Shown here one piece after another: positions 1,441 to 50,002 of a stretch of 54,700 bases of DNA; the first letter of the stretch is position 1; every line of letters starts with the position of its first letter. The stretch is from Chiloscyllium plagiosum. Taxonomy: Eukaryota. Location: the NCBI RefSeq assembly GCF_004010195.1, contig NC_057754.1:12045575-12100274 (forward strand). The letters are read 5' to 3'. The notes beneath the pieces were generated by a model that saw only the letters and a list, made by a program, of their open reading frames with translations, ran no database searches and was not told where the DNA came from. Made by a program: the position numbers and the translations under genes.

Positions 1441-1940
1441 NNNNNNNNNNNNNNNNNNNNNNNNNNNNNNNNNNNNNNNNNNNNNNNNNNNNNNNNNNNN
1501 NNNNNNNNNNNNNNNNNNNNNNNNNNNNNNNNNNNNNNNNNNNNNNNNNNNNNNNNNNNNNNNNNNNNNNNNNNNNNNNNNNNNNNNNNNNNNNNNNNNN
1601 NNNNNNNNNNNNNNNNNNNNNNNNNNNNNNNNNNNNNNNNNNNNNNNNNNNNNNNNNNNNNNNNNNNNNNNNNNNNNNNNNNNNNNNNNNNNNNNNNNNN
1701 NNNNNNNNNNNNNNNNNNNNNNNNNNNNNNNNNNNNNNNNNNNNNNNNNNNNNNNNNNNNNNNNNNNNNNNNNNNNNNNNNNNNNNNNNNNNNNNNNNNN
1801 NNNNNNNNNNNNNNNNNNNNNNNNNNNNNNNNNNNNNNNNNNNNNNNNNNNNNNNNNNNNNNNNNNNNNNNNNNNNNNNNNNNNNNNNNNNNNNNNNNNN
1901 NNNNNNNNNNNNNNNNNNNNNNNNNNNNNNNNNNNNNNNN
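1441..1940. other. Assembly gap (500 N)
   Basis: Run of N. Confidence 1.
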
Positions 1941-26509: not shown

Positions 26510-26611
26510 NNNNNNNNNNNNNNNNNNNNNNNNNNNNNNNNNNNNNNNNNNNNNNNNNNNNNNNNNNNNNNNNNNNNNNNNNNNNNNNNNNNNNNNNNNN
26601 NNNNNNNNNNN
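26510..26611. other. Assembly gap (102 N)
   Basis: Run of N. Confidence 1.
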
Positions 26612-35340: not shown

Positions 35341-37490
35341 ATTAGAGTGGTGCTGGAAAAGCACAACTGTTCAGGCAGCATCTGAGAAGCAAGAAAACTT
35401 GACTTTTGGAGCTTAAGCCCTTCATCAGGGCGGAAGACAGGGAGCCTCCAGGGTTGAGAGATAAATGGGAGGGGTCTGTGGCTAGGGACAAGGTAGCAAA
35501 GAATACAATGGATGGATGGGGGATGAAAGTGATAGGTCAGAGAGAAGGGTGGGGGAAGGTGGCAAAGAGTACAACGGGTGGATGGGGGTAGAGATGAAGG
35601 TGATAGGTCAGAGAGAAGGGTGGAGGTGATAGATGGGAAGGAGGATTCGAATCCTCCTATTTTCTCCCGACGAAAGGGGTAGACATGGGCACCCGTATGG
35701 GCCTCAGATATACCTGTCTCTTTGTCGGCTATGTAGAACAGTCAACCTTATGTTGTTACTCCGACAACACTCCCCACCTCTTCCTCCACTACATTGATGA
35801 CTGCATCAGCGCCACCTTGTGCGCCCGCGAGGAGGTTGAGCAGTTCATCAACCTCAACAACACATTCCACCCCGACCTTAAATTCGCTTGGATCACCTCG
35901 GATACCTCCCATCCCCTCCTGGACCTCTCCATCTCCATCAATGACGACCGACTTGACACTGACATTTTTACAAACCCACTGACTCCAATAGCTACCCGGA
36001 ATTACACCTCTTCCCACCCTACCTCCTGCAAAAATGCTATCCCGTAATCCCAATTCCTCCGGCTCCACCGTATCTGCTCCCAGGAGGACCAGTTCCACCA
36101 CAGAACACACCAGATGGTCTCCTTCTTTAAAGTCCGCAATTTCTCTTCCCACGTGGTTGAAAATGCCCTCCAACGCATCTCATCCACATCCCAAACATCC
36201 ACCTGCAAACGACACTCCTCCAAATATAACAAGGACAGTATCCCCCTAGTCCTCACCTTCCACCTTACCAACCTTCGCATAATCGTGGGCTGCACGGTGG
36301 TACAGTGGTTAGCACTGCTGCCTCACAGCGCCAGAGATCCGGGTTCAATTCCCGCCTCAGGCGACTGACTGTGTGGAGTTTGCACGTTCTCCCCGTGTCT
36401 GCGTGGTTTTCTCCGGGTGCTCCGGTTTCCTCTCACAATCCAAAGATGTGCAGGTAAGGTGAATTGGCCATGCTAAATTGCCTCTAGTGTTAGGTAAAGG
36501 GTAAATGTATGGGTATGTGTGGGTTGCGCTTCAGCGGAGCGGTGTGGAATTGTTGGGCCGAAGGGCCTGTTTCCACACTGTAAGTAATCTAATCTAATCC
36601 GCATCATTTGCTGACATTTCCACGACCTCCAAACGGACCCCCCCCCCCACCAGGGATATATTTCCCTCCCCACCCTTTTCCGCATTCTGCAAAGACCGTT
36701 CCCGCCGTGACTACTGGGTCAGGTCCACGCCCCCAACAACCTACCCTCTCCTACTGGCACCTTCCACTGCCACCGCAGGAATTGCAAATCCTGCGCCCAC
36801 ATCTCCCTCTTCTTGTCCATTAAAGGTCCCAAAGCAACCTTCCACATCCATCAAAGTTTCACCTGCACATCCACAAATGTCATTTATTGTATCTGTTGCT
36901 CTCGATGTGGTGTCCTTTATATTGGGGGACTGGACGCCCTCTCGCAGAGCGTTTTAGGGAACATCTATGGGACACACGCACCAATCAACCCCACCGCTCT
37001 GTGGCCCAACATTTCAACTCTCCCTCCCACTCTGTTGAGTACATGCAGGAACTGGGCCTCTTCCACCGCCACTCCCTCATCACCCAACACCTGGATGAAG
37101 AACGCCTCATCTACAACCTCGGAATACTTCAACTCCAGGGCATCATGTGGACTTCACCAGTTTCCTCATTTCCCCTACCCCACCAGTTCCAACCTTGCTG
37201 CTCAGCACCAGGCTCATGAACTGTCCTACCTGTCAATCTTCCTTCAGCTCCGCCCTCCTCTCTGCCCATATCACTTTCTTCCCGACCCCTATCCACCCAA
37301 TGTATTCTTTGCTACCTTCTCCCCAGCCCAATCCCCTTCCCATTTATCTCTCAAACCTGGAGGCTCCCTGCCTTCCGTCCTGAAGAAGGGCGATTTTCCT
37401 GCTCCTCGGATGCTGCCTGACTGGCTGTGCTTTTCCAGCACCACTATAATCTAGATTATAATTCCCTACATCTGCAGTCCTCGCGTTTGC
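35341..37490 (+). mobile_element. Penelope-like element (Neptune-like, family A): inverted 5' pLTR, RT C-half, Zn linker, GIY-YIG, 3' pLTR; decayed
   Basis: MGTRMG..YIDDC..HPDLKF..LDLSI (RT); CHRRNCKSC; FTCTSTNVIYCICCSRCGVLYIG..LAERFREH; 35341-35430 is the inverse of the 37375-37452 pLTR. Confidence 0.9.
36285..36599 (+). mobile_element. HE1-type V-SINE inserted in the PLE
   Basis: A box ggtggtacagtggttagc, B box gggttcaattcc, V-domain, tail gggccgaagggcctgtttccacactgtaag(taatc)3; taatc also lies immediately 5'. Confidence 0.92.
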
Positions 37491-39430: not shown

Positions 39431-39947
39431 ATTTGTGAACGGCCGGACGTCAGTTAATTAAAGAAACACAAGATCCCGAGAGAAGAGCACCCATTCCAGG
39501 GAGAAGGAGACACCGCTTTCTTACTCCCGTCAGGTAGTTAAAAGGATAAATAAGTTTTCCTTGTGTTTATATTTCTTCACGACAGAGGATCCAATACAAT
39601 CTAGAGTAAAGGATAGAAATTTCCAACTTCCCGTTTGTTTTGAAAGAAGTGGCGATGAATCCTTCAGGACGACAAAGTTTTCACTCTCCACATTACGATT
39701 TCTAAAGAAGTGACCCGTGTCTACTCTTCAGTAATTGCATTTACAGGAATGTTCTAAAAAGCAGTTGTGCTTATGGATGTGTATCTGTGTGTTTGGAGAG
39801 GGAGGATTTCTTGTGTTTTAAATCACATTTTAATAAGTAATTCACATCGTCCCATTTGTTACGTCAATTACATCATCTCTGTCCTCAATAAAACTGATAG
39901 CTCTGCTTCCAGGCGGATGTATAATGTGTTGTTTTCCTTCCTCACAG

Positions 39948-40855
39948 TTAACGTACTAACGATCTACGTCCTGCTTTATAAAGATTGTGGATTGTCTCCA
40001 TGTGTGAGTCGTTACTTGGGAGCCATGGCAGTGGCGGACCTACTGGTCATTATCATCGACGTGATTATGAGACACATTCCATTTGTTTATAAGGAACAGT
40101 TTTATTTCCTGAAGTCCATCCCCGTGTGTAATATCCACGCTGTGCTGCTTTATACAGCCACTGACTGTTCTGTCTGGTTCACCGTCACTTTCACCTTCGA
40201 TCGATTTGTGGCCATTTGTTGCCCGAAGCTGAAAAGCAAATATTGCAGTGTGAAAACGGCGACTGTGATTCTGGTAACAGTGATTGTGTTGAGCTTTTTA
40301 AAGAACATTTTCTGGTATTTTATGCTTTCAGCTCAGTATCGGTTTGGGAATTCCCCCTGGTTTTGTAAGGCAACAGACGATGTTTATAACTCTCGTGTCT
40401 GGGTCACAATCGAGTTCCTCCACCACTTTCTAACCCCGGTTCTTCCATGTCTCTTGATTCTGCTGCTCAATGCTTTCACCATCAGACACATTTTAGTAAC
40501 CAGTAGAGCCCGCAGGAGACTCAGGGCTCACACCAATGTGGACGCTCAGTGTGACAGAGAAATGCAAAATCGAAAAAAATCTATTATTTTACTGTTTGTG
40601 ATCTCGGCCAATTTTATCCTATTATGGACAACATTAATGGTGTTTGTTGTGTGGAAACGGATGTGGTATTTGGGGTATAGGTCTGTATATCTGTCTTGGT
40701 TTGTGCTTCGATTGGGCTTCACGCTGCAGCTCCTCAGCTGCTGCACAAACACAGTGATTTATGCCGTGACACAGACTAAGTTCAGACAGCAGCTGACGGA
40801 CGTGCTGAAATATCCCTTTATCCGAATTCATCAATCAATCAAAATCACTCATTAA
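39948..40855 (+). CDS. GPR139/GPR142-like class A orphan GPCR, main coding exon (end of TM1 to C-terminus)
   Basis: Open frame VNVLTI..CGLS..YLGAMAVADLLV..DCSVWFTVTFTFDRFVAICC..FILLW..LLSCCTNTVIYAVTQTKFR..stop; polypyrimidine acceptor ttttccttcctcacag at 39932-39947 (phase 1). Confidence 0.9.
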
Positions 40856-43570: not shown

Positions 43571-43838
43571 GTCAGGTGTGGCTTTGTTAGTGAAGTACAG
43601 TATAACGGTGGCCAAAAGATCTTTTGACGAGGATGCGTCTACCGAGGTGGATGGGCTGAAGTCAGAAACACGAGAGGAGAGTTCATACTGTTAGGAGTTT
43701 TGTTACAGTCCTTCACAAAGTTCCAGGGATGTGGGAGTGAGGATTTACAAAAGGATTCTGGGTGGGTGTGAAAGGAACAGGGTGGTCATCATGGAGAATT
43801 TAACTTCCCCAACTTTGATTGGAAATGCTATAATTCTA

Positions 43839-43960
43839 ATTCGGAGATGCCGGTGTTGGACTGGGGTATTACAATCACCTGATGAAGGAGCGTCGCTCCG
43901 AAAGCTAGTGTGCTTCCAATTAAACCGTTGGACTATAACCTGGTGTTGTGTGATTTTTAA
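43839..43960 (+). mobile_element. 122-bp PLE-derived non-coding insert (family B) carrying a hammerhead ribozyme
   Basis: Perfect 11-bp TSD ctataattcta at 43828-43838 and 43961-43971; interrupts the CR1 EN domain. Confidence 0.85.
43876..43910 (+). ncRNA. Minimal type I hammerhead ribozyme (intact core)
   Basis: CAC-CUGAUGA-A-GGAGC(GUC)GCUCC-GAAA-GC-UA-GUG; palindromic AGCU stem III; predicted cleavage after A43907. Confidence 0.8.
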
Positions 43961-46296
43961 CTATAATTCTAGTACGTCAGATGGATCGGTTTTTGTCCAA
44001 TGTGTGTCTAAAGTCCAACAAGAGGATCTGGTCGTTTGTAATGTACCACGCCATGTGTTTGACTTAGTGGTAGGACAGCACCTTGGCGAGAATGATCCCA
44101 ATTCGGTTATGTTTAGTTTAGCGATGTAAAGGGACAGGACATGCCACAGGATAAGAGTTATAAATGCGGAAGGGCAAATATAATGCGATTAGGCAAGACT
44201 TAGGAGGCATAGAATGGGGTTGGAAATGCAGGGGATGGGGAAAATCGAAGTGTAGAGCTAGCTTAAGGAACAGATATTGCGTGCCCTTGATCGTTATGCC
44301 CCTGTCAGGCAGGCAGGAAGTAATAAAGTAAGGGAACCATGGTTTACTAAAGACATTGTACCTCTTCTTAAGTTAAAGAGGGAGGCTTATGTGACGTTGA
44401 GATGAGGTGGTTCAGATTAGGCGACGGAGAGTTACAGAATAGATGGGAAGTATTTAAAGAGAGAGTTAAGAAAAGCAGGGAGGGGACATGAACAGTCTTT
44501 CGCTGCTGGGATAAAAGAGAACCCTGAAGCTTATGTGATGAATAAAAGGATGGCTAGGATATGAATAGAGCCAGTCAAAGATATAAATGGGAGGTCATGT
44601 GTGGACCCTGTGGAGATCGGAGAGGTGTTAAACGAATATTTCTCATCTGCAATCACTCAGGAAAAGGAGAATATTGTAGAGAAGAAGACTGAGATGCGGA
44701 CTATTACACAAGAAAGGATTGAGGTTAGTAAGGAGGAGCTGTTGTCAATTCATCCCTTGGGCTGGATGAGATTTATCCGCGGATTTTCTGGGAAGCTCGG
44801 CAGGAGATGGCGGAACCGTTGACCTTGATCATTTAGTCGTCATTGTCTACAGGTATACTATCAGAGGACTGGAGGATTGCAAATGTTGTGCCGTTGTTCA
44901 AGAAGCACAGCAGAGATAATCCAGGTAATTATAGACCAGCGAGTCTTACGTCTGCTGGAGGAAAAAGTTTGGAAAGAATTGTAAGGAATAGAATTTATAA
45001 TCATCTTGCAAGCAACAATATGATTGGAGATAGTAAACATGGCTTCGTCAAGGGCAGGTCGTGTCCCACAAACATCATTGAGTTTTTTGAGAAGATGACC
45101 AAGTACGTGGATGACGGTAGGGCAGTTGACGTGGTGTATATGGACTTCAGCAAAGCCTTTGGATAAGGTTCCACATGGTTGGCTTTTGTAGAAAATGCAG
45201 AAACATGGGATTGAGGGCGATTTAGCAATTTTAATTATAAACTGGCTTTTTGTAAGAAGCAGCGAGTGGATGTTGATGGAAAATATTCAGACTGGAGTCT
45301 GGTTACTAGTGGTGTGCCACAAGGATCAGTTTTGGGGCCACTGCTGTTTGTCATTTTATAACTGAGTTGGATGCAGGCATAGTTGGAAGGGTTAGTAAGT
45401 TTATTGATGACGCTAAAGTCAGTGGAGTGGTGGACAGTGTGGAAGCATGTTGCAGGTTGCAGGGGAGACTTGGATAAACTGCAGCATTGTGCTCAGAGAT
45501 GGCAAATAGAGTTCAATGCAGATAAATGTGAGGTGATTTGCTTTTGTAAGAATAACAGGTAGGCAGAAAACTGGGTCAATGGAAAAATTCTTGGTAGTGT
45601 GGGTGTACAAAGGGATCTTGGTGTCCATGTGCATAGATCCCTGCAAGTTTACACCCAGGTTGATAATACTGTTTGGAGGTCATTCGGTGTGCTAAGTTTT
45701 ATTCATAGAGGGGATGAGTTCTAGAGCCGTGATGACATGTTGAACTGTACAAAATGCTAATGTGGCTTCACTTGGGATATTGTGTGCAGGTCTGTTCACC
45801 CCATTACAGGAAGGATATGGAAGCATTGGAAAAGATGCAGAGAAGATTTACCAGGATGTTGCCTGGTCTGGAGGGAAGGTCTTATTCGGAAAGGCTGATG
45901 GACTTGGGTCTGTTCTCATTGGAGGGAAAAAGGCTAAGAGGGGATTTAATACAGACATACAGGATGGCCAGAGGATGAGTGTGGACAGTGAGAGTCTCTT
46001 TCCTAGGACGATGATGTCGGCTTGTAAGAGTGGGTCATAGTTGCAAATGGGAGGAGGGGTGACAGGTTTAAGGCAGATGTCAGAGGCAGGTTTTTTACTC
46101 AGAGAGTGTTGAGGGCATGGAATGTCCTGCCTGCCAATGTAGTGAACTCAGCCACACTAGGGGCATTTAAACGGTCCTTGGATTAGCATATGGATAATGA
46201 GGTTATAGTGTAGAGAGATGGGCTTAGATTAGTTCAAAGTCGGCGCAACATCAAGGGTCGAAGCGTCTGTTCTGCACTGTATTGTTCTATATTCTA

Positions 46297-49295: not shown

Positions 49296-49427
49296 ACTCT
49301 GTTATTGGAGTCATACCTGACAGATAGGAAGATGATCATTGTTGTTGGAGGTCAGTCATCTCAGTTCCAGAACATTTCTGCAGTAGTCCCTCAGGATAAT
49401 GTCCTAGGTGCAACCATCATCCGCTGC
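49296..49427 (+). mobile_element. Non-LTR RT fragment (CR1/L2 group)
   Basis: LESYLTDRKMIIVVGGQSSQFQNISAVVPQDNVLGATI. Confidence 0.7.
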
Positions 49428-50002
49428 GACCAGCTGTCCACTGAAGTGGCTGGTCCATTGGGTCCAGGTCGATGTGCTTATTGATTGTATCTGTGGATGC
49501 CATGCCTCTAGGAATTCCCTGGTTGTTCTCCGTTTGGCTTGTCCTATAATAGTAGTGTTGTCCCAGTCGACCGCATGTTGCTTGTCATCTGAGTGTTTGG
49601 TTACTAATGCTAGCTGGTCATGTCGTTTCGTGGGCAGTTGGTGCTCATGGACACGGACCATTAGCTGACTTTCTGTTTGTCCCATGTAGTGTTTTGTGCA
49701 GTCCTTGCATGTGATTTTGTACACTGCATTGGTTTTGCTCATGCTGGGTATCGGGTCCTTCATCCTGGTGAGTTGTTGTCTTACAGTGGCTGTTATGAGT
49801 CCTAGGACCCAATATACAAGCCACTGCAGCGGACAGCTGGAACTGACAACCGGAAGCGGCAGGTACAAATCACTATAAATGCCGGAGGAAACAAAACAGA
49901 AGCCCTTCACAGGAGGCTCCCAAGCACTGAGGATGTCACCTAGACAGGGGACGAAACGTCTGCAACACAACTAGCCAGCTCCGCGAACAGAACCACAACA
50001 AC
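49428..50002. mobile_element. Penelope-like element (Poseidon-like, family C): inverted GIY-YIG segment plus forward 3' pLTR
   Basis: Minus strand KDPIP..NAVYKITCKDCTKHYMGQT..RVHEH..DWDNTTII..REFLEAWH; 49430-49468 is the inverse of 49805-49840; forward pLTR with hammerhead. Confidence 0.85.
49924..49963 (+). ncRNA. Minimal type I hammerhead ribozyme (intact core)
   Basis: GCA-CUGAGGA-U-GUCACCU(AGAC)AGGGGAC-GAAA-CG-UC-UGC; palindromic ACGU stem III; predicted GUC cleavage after C49960. Confidence 0.8.

What the first reader, a model, noticed from the sequence alone, without database searches (positions are those of the whole stretch)
43828..43971. 122-bp mobile non-coding element containing an intact minimal hammerhead ribozyme (retrozyme-like)
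Seen: a perfect 11-bp TSD (ctataattcta) brackets an insert with no coding capacity. It contains CAC-CUGAUGA-A-GGAGC(GUC)GCUCC-GAAA-GC-UA-GUG, i.e. a full catalytic core, a perfect 5-bp stem II, a 3-bp stem I and a self-complementary AGCU stem III. Established: PLE pLTRs carry minimal hammerheads thought to cleave as dimers. Inference: a young insertion of a ribozyme-bearing miniature, possibly a non-autonomous self-cleaving retroelement family mobilised by PLE RT/GIY-YIG. This is the best candidate for an undescribed system in the window.
Basis: partly seen in the sequence, partly recalled or inferred. Interest (0 to 1): 0.8.

Follow-up and report, generated by a model that had tools for sequence, protein, structure and literature searches.

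The report
Stump copy of Penelope-like retroelement
This 122-base insert is a real, recent insertion with an intact minimal hammerhead motif, but it is an ordinary stump copy of the ribozyme-bearing end of a very abundant Penelope-like jumping gene, likely copied from the short front end of that element's RNA, and not a new kind of mobile element.

Summary
A perfect 11-bp duplication (43828-38, 43961-71) flanks a 122-bp insert, and paralogous copies of the host repeat carry the target once without the insert. The insert holds a complete minimal hammerhead (43876-43910).

The insert is not a discrete ribozyme-bearing family. It is a stump insertion of a very abundant Penelope-like element (PLE).
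- Positions 43870-43960 are the 92-nt segment just upstream of the PLE ORF, which also ends every PLE copy.
- Positions 43839-43867 are the PLE's optional 'tail' in inverted orientation.
- The hammerhead core occurs 4,688 times exactly in this genome and the tail 9,179 times.
- The junction type of the 122-bp form occurs only 7 times, with no shared diagnostic mutations.

Family copies show the published PLE hallmarks: head-to-head inverted arms, the tail on one arm only (14 of 16), 9-14 bp TSDs and 5' truncation. In a sample, 15 of 27 insertions start at one point, 30 nt after a TATAAA box. This suggests, but does not show, that the stumps are copies of the element's RNA leader. Poly(A)+ reads end at an ATTAAA-directed site inside the segment.

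This scan reached the same reading before on other DNA of this genome and in other genomes.

Verdict: new member of a known kind, low interest.

The parts
43828..43838 (.). Left copy of the 11-bp target-site duplication (ctataattcta)
   Evidence: Present once in 11 of 11 paralogous empty sites.
43839..43867 (-). Inverted PLE 'tail' (29 nt), the reverse complement of ACCCCAGTCCAACACCGGCATCTCCGAAT. In full elements this lies between the hammerhead segment and the ORF's ATG.
   Evidence: The tail 29-mer has 9,179 exact copies. The tail runs into ATG ACT ACT ATC... in 7 of 30 loci.
43868..43869 (.). Two junction letters (AT) between the inverted tail and the forward segment. Sister copies read GGGGTGTACAATC, joined at a TACAA microhomology.
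   Evidence: L002-L009.
43870..43960 (+). Forward 92-nt terminal/leader segment ('B') of the PLE. It runs from the family's hot-spot 5' end (T)ACAATCACC to the proximal 3' end ...GATTTTTAA, without the 3' tail.
   Evidence: 98.9% identical to 19 other copies. Contiguous with the 3'UTR upstream and tail+ORF downstream in full arrangements.
43876..43910 (+). Minimal type-I hammerhead: helix I CAC/GTG, CTGATGA, bulged A43886, helix II GGAGC-GTC-GCTCC, GAAA, palindromic AGCT, A17 = 43907. The predicted cut lies between 43907 and 43908.
   Evidence: The architecture matches PMC4209133.
43919..43938 (+). ATTAAA poly(A) signal (43919-43924) and the place equivalent to the poly(A) sites used in family transcripts (about 43935-43938).
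   Evidence: Poly(A)/poly(T) loose ends of run X21 on L171 and L044. Not shown for this copy itself.
43961..43971 (.). Right copy of the 11-bp target-site duplication
43660..44140 (+). Host repeat into which the element inserted: a dispersed, LINE-like repeat. The endonuclease-like reading ...GEFNFPNFDW... is my own recognition and was not tested.
   Evidence: 1,374 first-look candidates; 39 other scored copies 83-86% identical.

Best explanation
The 122-bp insert is a target-site-duplicated stump insertion of an abundant Penelope-like element (PLE). It joins the element's 92-nt hammerhead-bearing segment head-to-head to an inverted 29-nt PLE 'tail'. It was likely made by the PLE's own reverse transcriptase/GIY-YIG endonuclease priming cDNA synthesis on both cut DNA strands.

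Shown:
- It is an insertion with an 11-bp TSD.
- Its two parts are the sequence that ends PLE copies and that also sits directly upstream of the PLE ORF.
- Family insertions are mostly head-to-head inverted pairs with the tail on one arm only.
- More than half of sampled insertions begin at one nucleotide, 30 nt downstream of a TATAAA box.
- Family transcripts in poly(A)+ RNA end at an ATTAAA-directed site inside the segment.

Inferred:
- The fixed 5' end is the element's transcription start, so the 92-nt and 130-nt stumps would be complete cDNA copies of the RNA leader. This would follow because PLE RT starts internally at two sites (the end of the segment and the end of the tail) just before the ORF, as shown in vitro for an Anolis PLE.
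- The forward arm was primed at the proximal site on one DNA strand, and the inverted tail at the distal site on the other strand.
- The two were joined near a TACAA microhomology.

This copy has no promoter and none of the sequence 3' of the RT start sites. It has only one hammerhead, so no partner for helix III. It is therefore predicted to be dead on arrival, with the ribozyme as a passenger.
For: - Insertion and TSD.
- Same sequence as PLE ends: L044/L063 carry, on one strand, RT-like (…YIRYIDDIFF…) and Cys-rich/GIY-YIG-like ORF pieces, about 900 bp of 3'UTR, the segment and the tail. L180 shows …IVYLICC…WHIGETEQ… followed by the 3'UTR, TATAAA, hammerhead, tail and ATG.
- Protein family: RVT_1 match at E 3e-4, below Pfam's cutoff. 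The nearest ESM-Atlas clusters score 0.95-0.96 and include 'GIY-YIG nuclease family protein', with PF01541 on 64% of members.
- Tail runs into the ORF (ATG ACT ACT ATC…, MTTIDTTNCRLKVERISKK…): 7 of 30 loci. The contiguous 3'UTR-segment-tail-ORF arrangement is matched over about the whole 414-nt query at many of the 40 candidates scored.
- Abundance: core 4,688 exact copies, tail 9,179, controls 0.
- PLE hallmarks in an unselected sample of contig C1: of 27 events, 16 are inverted pairs. Of these, 14 carry the tail on exactly one arm, 2 on neither and 0 on both. The 9 close pairs among the first 100 listed places are all in -/+ (head-to-head) order.
- TSDs of 9-14 bp in 9 of 9 sister copies.
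- Fixed start: 15 of 27 events have the longest arm starting at reference positions 2407-2418; 12 start further upstream, at scattered reference positions 860-2397. Of the 3,122 exact ACAATCACC… copies, 1,696 continue into the 3'UTR hexamer.
- Promoter-like geometry: the first T of TATAAA is 30 nt before the A of ACAATC in L171 and others.
- Rare junction class: 7 exact matches, no shared private mutations. L008 has a longer inverted arm.
- Literature (text read): the tail is the stretch between two internal RT start sites, and both DNA strands are cut and extended (PMC11167929). Inverted 5'-truncated copy and a 30-40 bp tail at one end (PMC8557442, PMC3846280). TSS inside the pLTR (PMC8557442). 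Solo and opposite-strand min-HHRs as truncated PLEs (PMC4209133).
Against: - No intact parent ORF was seen. All readable copies carry stops, and the longer copies read N over their 5' parts.
- Pfam does not recognise the nuclease domain, so the PLE identity of the protein rests on a sub-threshold RT match, Atlas neighbours and motifs that I recognise from memory.
- The transcription start is not shown. The one raw-read RNA run is 3'-biased and shows no pile of read starts.
- This copy's junction (GGGGT-AT-TACAATC) differs from that of its sisters (GGGGTGTACAATC). Either it mutated or it was joined differently.
- The order of priming and joining events is inference from insertion anatomy and from one in-vitro system in a lizard PLE.
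Confidence: 0.85

Rival explanations
1. It is a member of a self-standing, non-autonomous, retrozyme-like family. Short hammerhead units would be transcribed, self-cleave as dimers, perhaps circularise, and be re-inserted in trans by PLE enzymes.
For: A discrete recurring unit exists: 15 of 27 events share one 5' end. Nine same-architecture copies with TSDs were found. Non-LTR retrozymes are reported as PLE derivatives in vertebrates, including one cartilaginous fish (bioRxiv 10.64898/2026.07.22.740005, abstract, introduction and results read).
Against: - No tandem arrays: 0 same-strand close pairs among the first 100 listed core matches, against 9 head-to-head pairs.
- The unit is identical to the parent PLE's own segment, and sister copies share no private mutations.
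- Only 7 exact junctions of the 122-bp type exist.
- The stumps lack the TATA box and everything 3' of the RT start sites.
- Insert ends do not coincide with the hammerhead cut site.
Confidence: 0.08
2. It is a miniature inverted-repeat (fold-back/MITE-like) DNA transposon moved by a transposase.
For: Many family members are about 200-250-bp near-palindromes flanked by direct repeats.
Against: - TSD length varies from 9 to 14 bp.
- Arms are unequal and end at different points, with the tail on one arm only.
- This copy has no terminal inverted repeat.
- The arms are the end of an RT-encoding element with graded 5' truncation.
Confidence: 0.02
3. The fixed 5' end is not a transcription start. 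It could instead be a preferred stop or template-switch point of the RT, for example at the foot of the hammerhead fold, or an RNA-processing site.
For: No RNA 5'-end data are available. Inverted arms often meet exactly there as a palindrome, GGTGATTG|ACAATCACC.
Against: - The TATAAA box lies exactly 30 nt upstream, with a CA start dinucleotide.
- Single-arm stumps with their own TSD also start there (L014; L079).
- PLE pLTRs are reported to hold the TSS (PMC8557442).
- ORF-containing copies also begin inside the segment (L111, L112, L124, L125, L130).
Confidence: 0.3

Closest known systems
Insertions of endonuclease-bearing Penelope-like elements with direct/inverted pLTRs and the optional 30-40-bp 'tail' (PMC3846280; PMC8557442; PMC11167929)
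   Same: TSD-flanked. An inverted 5'-truncated copy abuts the forward copy head-to-head. The tail (here about 37 nt including an 8-nt linker) is on one end only. Targets are AT-rich. A hammerhead and a TATA box lie in the terminal repeat. The tail borders the ORF start.
   Different: This is an extreme stump: 92 nt forward plus 29 nt inverted, with no ORF. In this family the two apparent RT start sites lie just before, or within about the first 10 nt of, the ORF. In the Anolis element they lie about 110 nt inside it. The hammerhead sits wholly in the leader and does not overlap the start codon.
Minimal hammerheads of metazoan PLEs (Cervera & De la Peña 2014, PMC4209133)
   Same: [quoted passage not shown]
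   Different: Helix II is 5 bp here, against 7-8 bp in the Schistosoma families. The family is unusually uniform (4,688 identical cores), as in the D. virilis case that the paper calls a recent invasion.
Animal non-LTR retrozymes (Li, Clavereau & Pollet 2026, bioRxiv 10.64898/2026.07.22.740005)
   Same: Non-coding, carries a type-I hammerhead, and derives from the PLE terminal region.
   Different: Retrozymes are defined by tandem repeats with a hammerhead in each unit. This is a single unit with an inverted tail, and no tandem arrays of it were seen.
Retroviral R region and strong-stop cDNA (analogy from general knowledge, not tested)
   Same: A short segment that would hold both the transcription start and the poly(A) signal and site, and so would be present at both RNA ends. 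A short cDNA would be made from the 5' leader.
   Different: Priming here is target-primed at internal RNA sites, not by tRNA. The short cDNA is itself integrated.

Membership tests
EN+ Penelope-like element insertion | Parent element encodes a PLE-type RT followed by a C-terminal GIY-YIG endonuclease | tested here: inconclusive
   RT-like and Cys-rich/…IVYLICC…WHIGETEQ… ORF pieces lie upstream of the segment. RVT_1 scores E 3e-4, below Pfam's cutoff. Pfam gives no GIY-YIG hit. Atlas neighbours score 0.95-0.96 and include GIY-YIG clusters. Longer ORF copies read N.
EN+ Penelope-like element insertion | Optional 30-40-bp tail present at only one end of the insertion | tested here: met
   14 of 16 inverted pairs carry the tail on exactly one arm. 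This copy has the tail on the inverted arm only.
EN+ Penelope-like element insertion | Adjacent inverted 5'-truncated copy joined head-to-head | tested here: met
   16 of 27 sampled events. All 9 close pairs are in -/+ order. Here the inverted arm is cut down to the tail.
EN+ Penelope-like element insertion | Target-site duplication of variable length and frequent 5' truncation | tested here: met
   TSDs of 9-14 bp in 9 of 9 sister copies. 5' ends range from reference position 860 to 2418.
Metazoan PLE minimal hammerhead | Conserved core boxes, an extra nucleotide between 9 and 10.1, G10.1-C11.1, palindromic 15.2-16.2 without a helix III | tested here: met
   Sequence 43876-43910. Descriptor hit: 1 in the window, 0 in 200 shuffles. 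Features as listed in PMC4209133.
Metazoan PLE minimal hammerhead | Helices supported by compensatory changes | tested here: inconclusive
   Among 136 distinct copies, most variation is CpG decay in and beside the helix II loop. The family is too young to test this.
Metazoan PLE minimal hammerhead | Self-cleavage (as a dimer, or assisted by protein) | not testable with these tools
   No pile of read ends at the cut site in two lays of a poly(A)+, 3'-biased run. That run cannot decide the question.
Rfam Hammerhead type I (RF00163 clan) | Match to the covariance model | tested here: not met
   No hit at gathering threshold or at E<=10. This is expected without helix III.
Non-LTR retrozyme | Tandem direct repeats, each unit with a type-I hammerhead | tested here: not met
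   A single unit here. 0 same-strand close pairs among the first 100 listed core matches. One +/+ pair 333 bp apart appears in the list.
Non-LTR retrozyme | Unit-length circular RNA | not testable with these tools
   No suitable RNA data were available.
MITE / fold-back DNA transposon | Terminal inverted repeats and a TSD of fixed length | tested here: not met
   This copy has no TIR. TSDs are 9-14 bp and the arms are unequal.

The most novel reading that the evidence does not exclude
The 130 nt before the PLE's ORF act like a retroviral R region. They pack, in order, a TATA-directed transcription start, the hammerhead, a working poly(A) signal and site, and two internal RT start sites. An ordinary element mRNA would then carry RT start sites only in its leader. 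Most retrotransposition attempts would therefore integrate just the 92- or 130-nt capped leader, one start site per DNA strand. That would explain why animal genomes hold thousands of solo and mirror-image minimal hammerheads.
Probability: 0.45. Interest if true: 0.55.

Novelty: new member of a known kind. Interest (0 to 1): 0.25.

Why it matters
For annotation: such TSD-flanked hammerhead miniatures should be filed as PLE stump insertions. They are not retrozymes, MITEs or new ribozyme elements.

For mechanism: this young, uniform family has 4,688 identical cores. It is a clean natural record of PLE integration, with two alternative 3' ends 37 nt apart, one per arm. It also shows a fixed 5' end behind a TATA box, and microhomology joints.

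If the leader-cDNA reading holds, it would link the in-vitro finding of internal RT initiation to the genome-wide excess of solo minimal hammerheads.

A side effect worth noting: thousands of copies scatter a functional ATTAAA poly(A) signal through the genome.

Tried and rejected
- Rfam scans of the window and of 43700-44100 at E<=10 found nothing.
- Pfam on five, then three, ORF pieces gave only a sub-threshold RVT_1 match and no GIY-YIG. A PDB sequence search of the C-terminal piece found nothing.
A DNA query was used instead.
- Search for an intact parent ORF failed. All readable copies have stops, and the longer ones read N over the 5' part.
- Sequencing runs: no RNA holder listed.
- Run X22 laid 0 reads, so it is no test.
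- The two lays showed no places where many molecules begin or end, at the hammerhead cut or at the proposed start. The library is poly(A)+ single-cell and 3'-biased, so this decides nothing.
- Contig-run depths were 10-50 times higher over the distal segment and tail than over the hammerhead. I first suspected a separate SINE sharing the tail. The 30 tail-anchored loci turned out to be the same family with decayed or truncated hammerheads.
- An apparent extra T before ACAATC in stumps looked like a non-templated addition. It came from ranking hits by likeness to my query. In the unselected samples the preceding base is C or G.
- Covariation in helix II: the variation is CpG decay and is not informative.
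- A ViennaRNA cofold of two hammerhead segments predicts a strand-swapped helix II, not the AGCU helix III. The energy model is not informative for a 4-bp helix.
- The supplements of the bioRxiv preprint, which list its retrozyme families, were not seen. They might already include this family.
Full report
**1. Observation**

- ctataattcta lies at 43828-43838 and again at 43961-43971, around a 122-bp insert (43839-43960).
- The motif CAC-CTGATGA-A-GGAGC-GTC-GCTCC-GAAA-GC-TA|GTG lies at 43876-43910.

The surrounding DNA is a dispersed repeat with 1,374 first-look candidates. In 11 of 11 fetched paralogues (83-86% identical), the left flank with the TSD and the right flank with the TSD overlap by about 11 bp. 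These paralogues read straight through a single copy of the target without the insert. So this is a true insertion with an 11-bp target-site duplication.

I wrote a min-hammerhead descriptor to test the motif. It finds this one site in the window and none in 200 shuffles. Rfam finds no family at gathering threshold or at E<=10. That fits a hammerhead lacking helix III.

**2. What the insert is made of**

I searched the window's own genome (3.56 Gb) with the 122 bp.
- Nine matches covered the whole length.
- Many more matched only positions 32-122, at 99% identity, usually next to an inverted second copy.

Reading these loci shows two modules.
- 'B', 92 nt: (T)ACAATCACC…GATTTTTAA, holding the hammerhead.
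- A 'tail': CTTTGTAC + ACCCCAGTCCAACACCGGCATCTCCGAAT(CATGA…).

The first 29 nt of the window's insert are the reverse complement of that tail. The rest is B without a tail.

Typical family members are head-to-head pairs, tail'-B'|B-tail. One arm is cut short at the centre. They have TSDs of 10-12 bp. B alone with its own TSD also occurs (L014).

**3. The parent element**

Some copies extend upstream of B (726 candidates, 97-99% identical). The extension is graded, up to about 900 bp and beyond. It runs into ORF pieces with an RT-like YIRYIDDIFF block and a Cys-rich/…IVYLICC…WHIGETEQ… C-terminus.

The protein evidence is weak.
- Pfam gives only a sub-threshold RVT_1 match (E 3e-4).
- Pfam gives no nuclease family.
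- The ESM Atlas's nearest clusters (0.95-0.96) include 'GIY-YIG nuclease family protein'.

Downstream, the tail continues into ATG ACT ACT ATC GAC… in 7 of 30 loci fetched with a tail-plus-ATG pattern, which has 116 genome matches. A 414-nt query spanning 3'UTR-B-tail-ORF is matched over about its whole length at many of the 40 candidates scored. The conserved ORF start reads MTTIDTTNCRLKVERISKK….

B+tail is therefore both the 3' end of every copy and the 130 nt directly before the ORF. That is a pseudo-LTR in the sense of the PLE literature. No intact ORF was seen. Readable copies have stops, and longer copies read N.

**4. Numbers**

| Pattern | Exact matches |
|---|---|
| 38-nt hammerhead core | 4,688 (reversed control 0) |
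| 29-nt tail | 9,179 (control 0) |
| ACAATCACC… 29-mer | 3,122 |
| The same 29-mer preceded by the 3'UTR hexamer CCCTCY | 1,696 |
| Junction of the 122-bp architecture (GGACTGGGGTRTACAATCACCTGATGA) | 7 |

I took the first 30 core matches on contig C1 as an unselected sample. They represent 27 events.
- 15 events have their longest arm starting at reference positions 2407-2418.
- 12 start further upstream, at scattered reference positions 860-2397.
- 16 are inverted pairs. Of these, 14 carry the tail on exactly one arm, 2 on neither and 0 on both. One copy with tails on both arms, L022, was seen outside the sample.

Among the first 100 listed core matches, the 9 close pairs are all in -/+ order, meaning their 5' ends face each other. 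None lie on the same strand.

**5. The 122-bp form**

Its sisters L002-L009 have the same plan and TSDs of 9-14 bp. Most read …GGGGTGTACAATCACC…. Here the inverted tail (which would continue GTACAAAG) and B (TACAATC) share TACAA, so the joint sits at a microhomology.
- L008 has a longer inverted arm.
- The window's copy reads GGGGT-AT-TACAATC.
- The copies share no private mutations.

With about 10 members among thousands of insertions, this is a rare, recurrent joint class, not an amplifying unit.

The window's copy differs from the commonest B by one missing T, and its TSD is perfect. It is therefore young relative to its host repeat, which is about 15% diverged.

**6. Comparison with print**

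Cervera & De la Peña 2014 (PMC4209133, text read) defined minimal hammerheads of metazoan PLEs by these features:
- a G10.1-C11.1 pair;
- a short helix I;
- a palindrome in place of helix III;
- action as dimers, with low activity.

They noted thousands of copies per genome, mostly solo or as pairs on opposite strands 100-700 bp apart, 'probably related to truncated PLEs'. Every sequence feature is met here.

Three further papers describe the insertion anatomy.
- Arkhipova et al. 2013 (PMC3846280, passages read) and Craig et al. 2021 (PMC8557442, passages read) describe TSD-flanked inserts with an adjacent inverted 5'-truncated pLTR. They also describe a 30-40-bp tail at one end only and a TATA/Inr in the pLTR, which holds the transcription start.
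- Frangieh et al. 2024 (PMC11167929, main text read) showed that an Anolis PLE protein cuts and extends both DNA strands. Reverse transcription starts at two adjacent internal RNA sites, and the tail is the stretch between them. Hammerhead cleavage needs the protein and is not required for insertion in vitro.

Li, Clavereau & Pollet 2026 (bioRxiv 10.64898/2026.07.22.740005; abstract, introduction and results read, supplements not seen) derive tandem 'non-LTR retrozymes' from PLE pLTRs.

A search for Penelope-like + shark + hammerhead found only a general review (listing seen). A search for Penelope + pLTR + transcription start site + promoter found nothing on leader-only insertions.

**7. Mechanism**

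Shown:
- the anatomy described above;
- two alternative 3' ends 37 nt apart, one per arm;
- a fixed 5' end;
- the first T of TATAAA lying 30 nt before the A of ACAATC, which follows a C.

RNA evidence comes from one public poly(A)+ single-cell run, X21, laid as raw reads.
- Sense-strand reads cover the 3'UTR and B.
- 596 of them end in poly(A) right after …GGACTA/…GGACTATAA, 12-15 nt behind ATTAAA.
- The mirror result appears on the antisense locus: 487 reads with poly(T).
- Depth falls to 0-1 in the ORF start.

Inferred:
- The fixed 5' end is the transcription start. B is then an R-like leader holding start, hammerhead and poly(A) site.
- An RNA that begins there offers the RT its start sites only 92 and 130 nt from its 5' end. 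Complete cDNA of that leader gives the stumps.
- Longer copies need RNA that reads through from upstream.
- In the window's copy, the forward arm started at the proximal site. The inverted arm started at the distal site on the other DNA strand and was joined after about 29 nt.

A 9-bp complement (TGTTGGACT in B, AGTCCAACA in the tail) would enclose the proximal start site in a stem-loop (MFE fold). This recalls the stem-loop at the Anolis start site.

The copy has no promoter, no sequence 3' of the start sites and a single hammerhead. I predict it to be inert.

**8. Rivals**

- A self-standing retrozyme-like family (0.08). It fails on the lack of tandem arrays, on identity with the parent and on the rarity of the 122-bp junction.
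- A fold-back DNA transposon (0.02). It fails on variable TSDs and unequal arms.
- The fixed 5' end as an RT stop or processing site rather than a transcription start. This remains open (0.3, within the PLE reading).

**9. Earlier notes of this scan** (read after my own reading was fixed)

The notes reach the same conclusion for palindromic and fold-back stumps in this same genome (e1-7858806, e1-9289027). They do so for fixed-start stumps in other genomes too (e1-9987643, e1-9915512, e1-9034159). The last of these also proposes copies of the capped front end of the RNA. These are not independent evidence.

A neighbouring note (e1-9095191) calls the genome a shark's. I did not test that.

**10. 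Verdict**

This is a new member of a known kind, with interest 0.25. The most novel reading still open is the R-like leader model (probability 0.45).

Noticed in passing
L171:1660-1680 and L044:1451-1470 (equivalent to window 43919-43938): The PLE terminal segment carries a working poly(A) signal. Poly(A)+ reads of run X21 end 12-15 nt after ATTAAA (596 reads on L171, 487 on L044). With thousands of copies, the family scatters poly(A) sites through the genome. The hammerhead cut site lies about 30 nt upstream of the poly(A) site.
   Followed up: partly
L112, L125, L137 (around position 1500); G000:C1:57023669 and 57024002: Short composite copies in which segment-tail-first 90-330 nt of the ORF is followed directly by the last 40-75 nt of the 3'UTR and a second segment. 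This gives two direct hammerheads a few hundred bp apart, the only retrozyme-like geometry seen. The joints differ between copies, so these look like separate events.
   Followed up: partly
L124, L137; window 43926-43934 versus the tail: A perfect 9-bp complement (TGTTGGACT in the segment, AGTCCAACA in the tail) encloses the proximal 3'-end site in a predicted stem-loop. In the window's copy the first half has lost one T.
   Followed up: partly
window 36711-37454 (+) and 49404-49970 (-): Two open frames with Cys-rich and …VIYCICCSRCGVLYIGG… / …AVYKITCKDCTKHYMGQTESQL… stretches. They look like GIY-YIG ends of other, older PLE copies. Pfam finds nothing in them.
   Followed up: partly
window 39758-40855 (+): A 365-aa open frame with a seven-helix receptor look, about 3 kb upstream of the insert.
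   Followed up: no
window 1441-1940 and 26510-26611; loci L051, L106, L107, L124, L180, L181: Runs of N. In the loci they cover the 5' parts of the longer PLE copies, so no complete ORF of the family could be read.
   Followed up: no
L002:1651-1731 and 2303-2388; L148, L152, L153, L163: Older PLE subfamilies with variant hammerheads (helix I TAC/GTG, loop AGC/ATT, GTGCTTCC instead of GTGTGCTTCC) share the same tail. The first look of the RT search gave 41,490 candidates, so PLEs are a large part of this genome.
   Followed up: no
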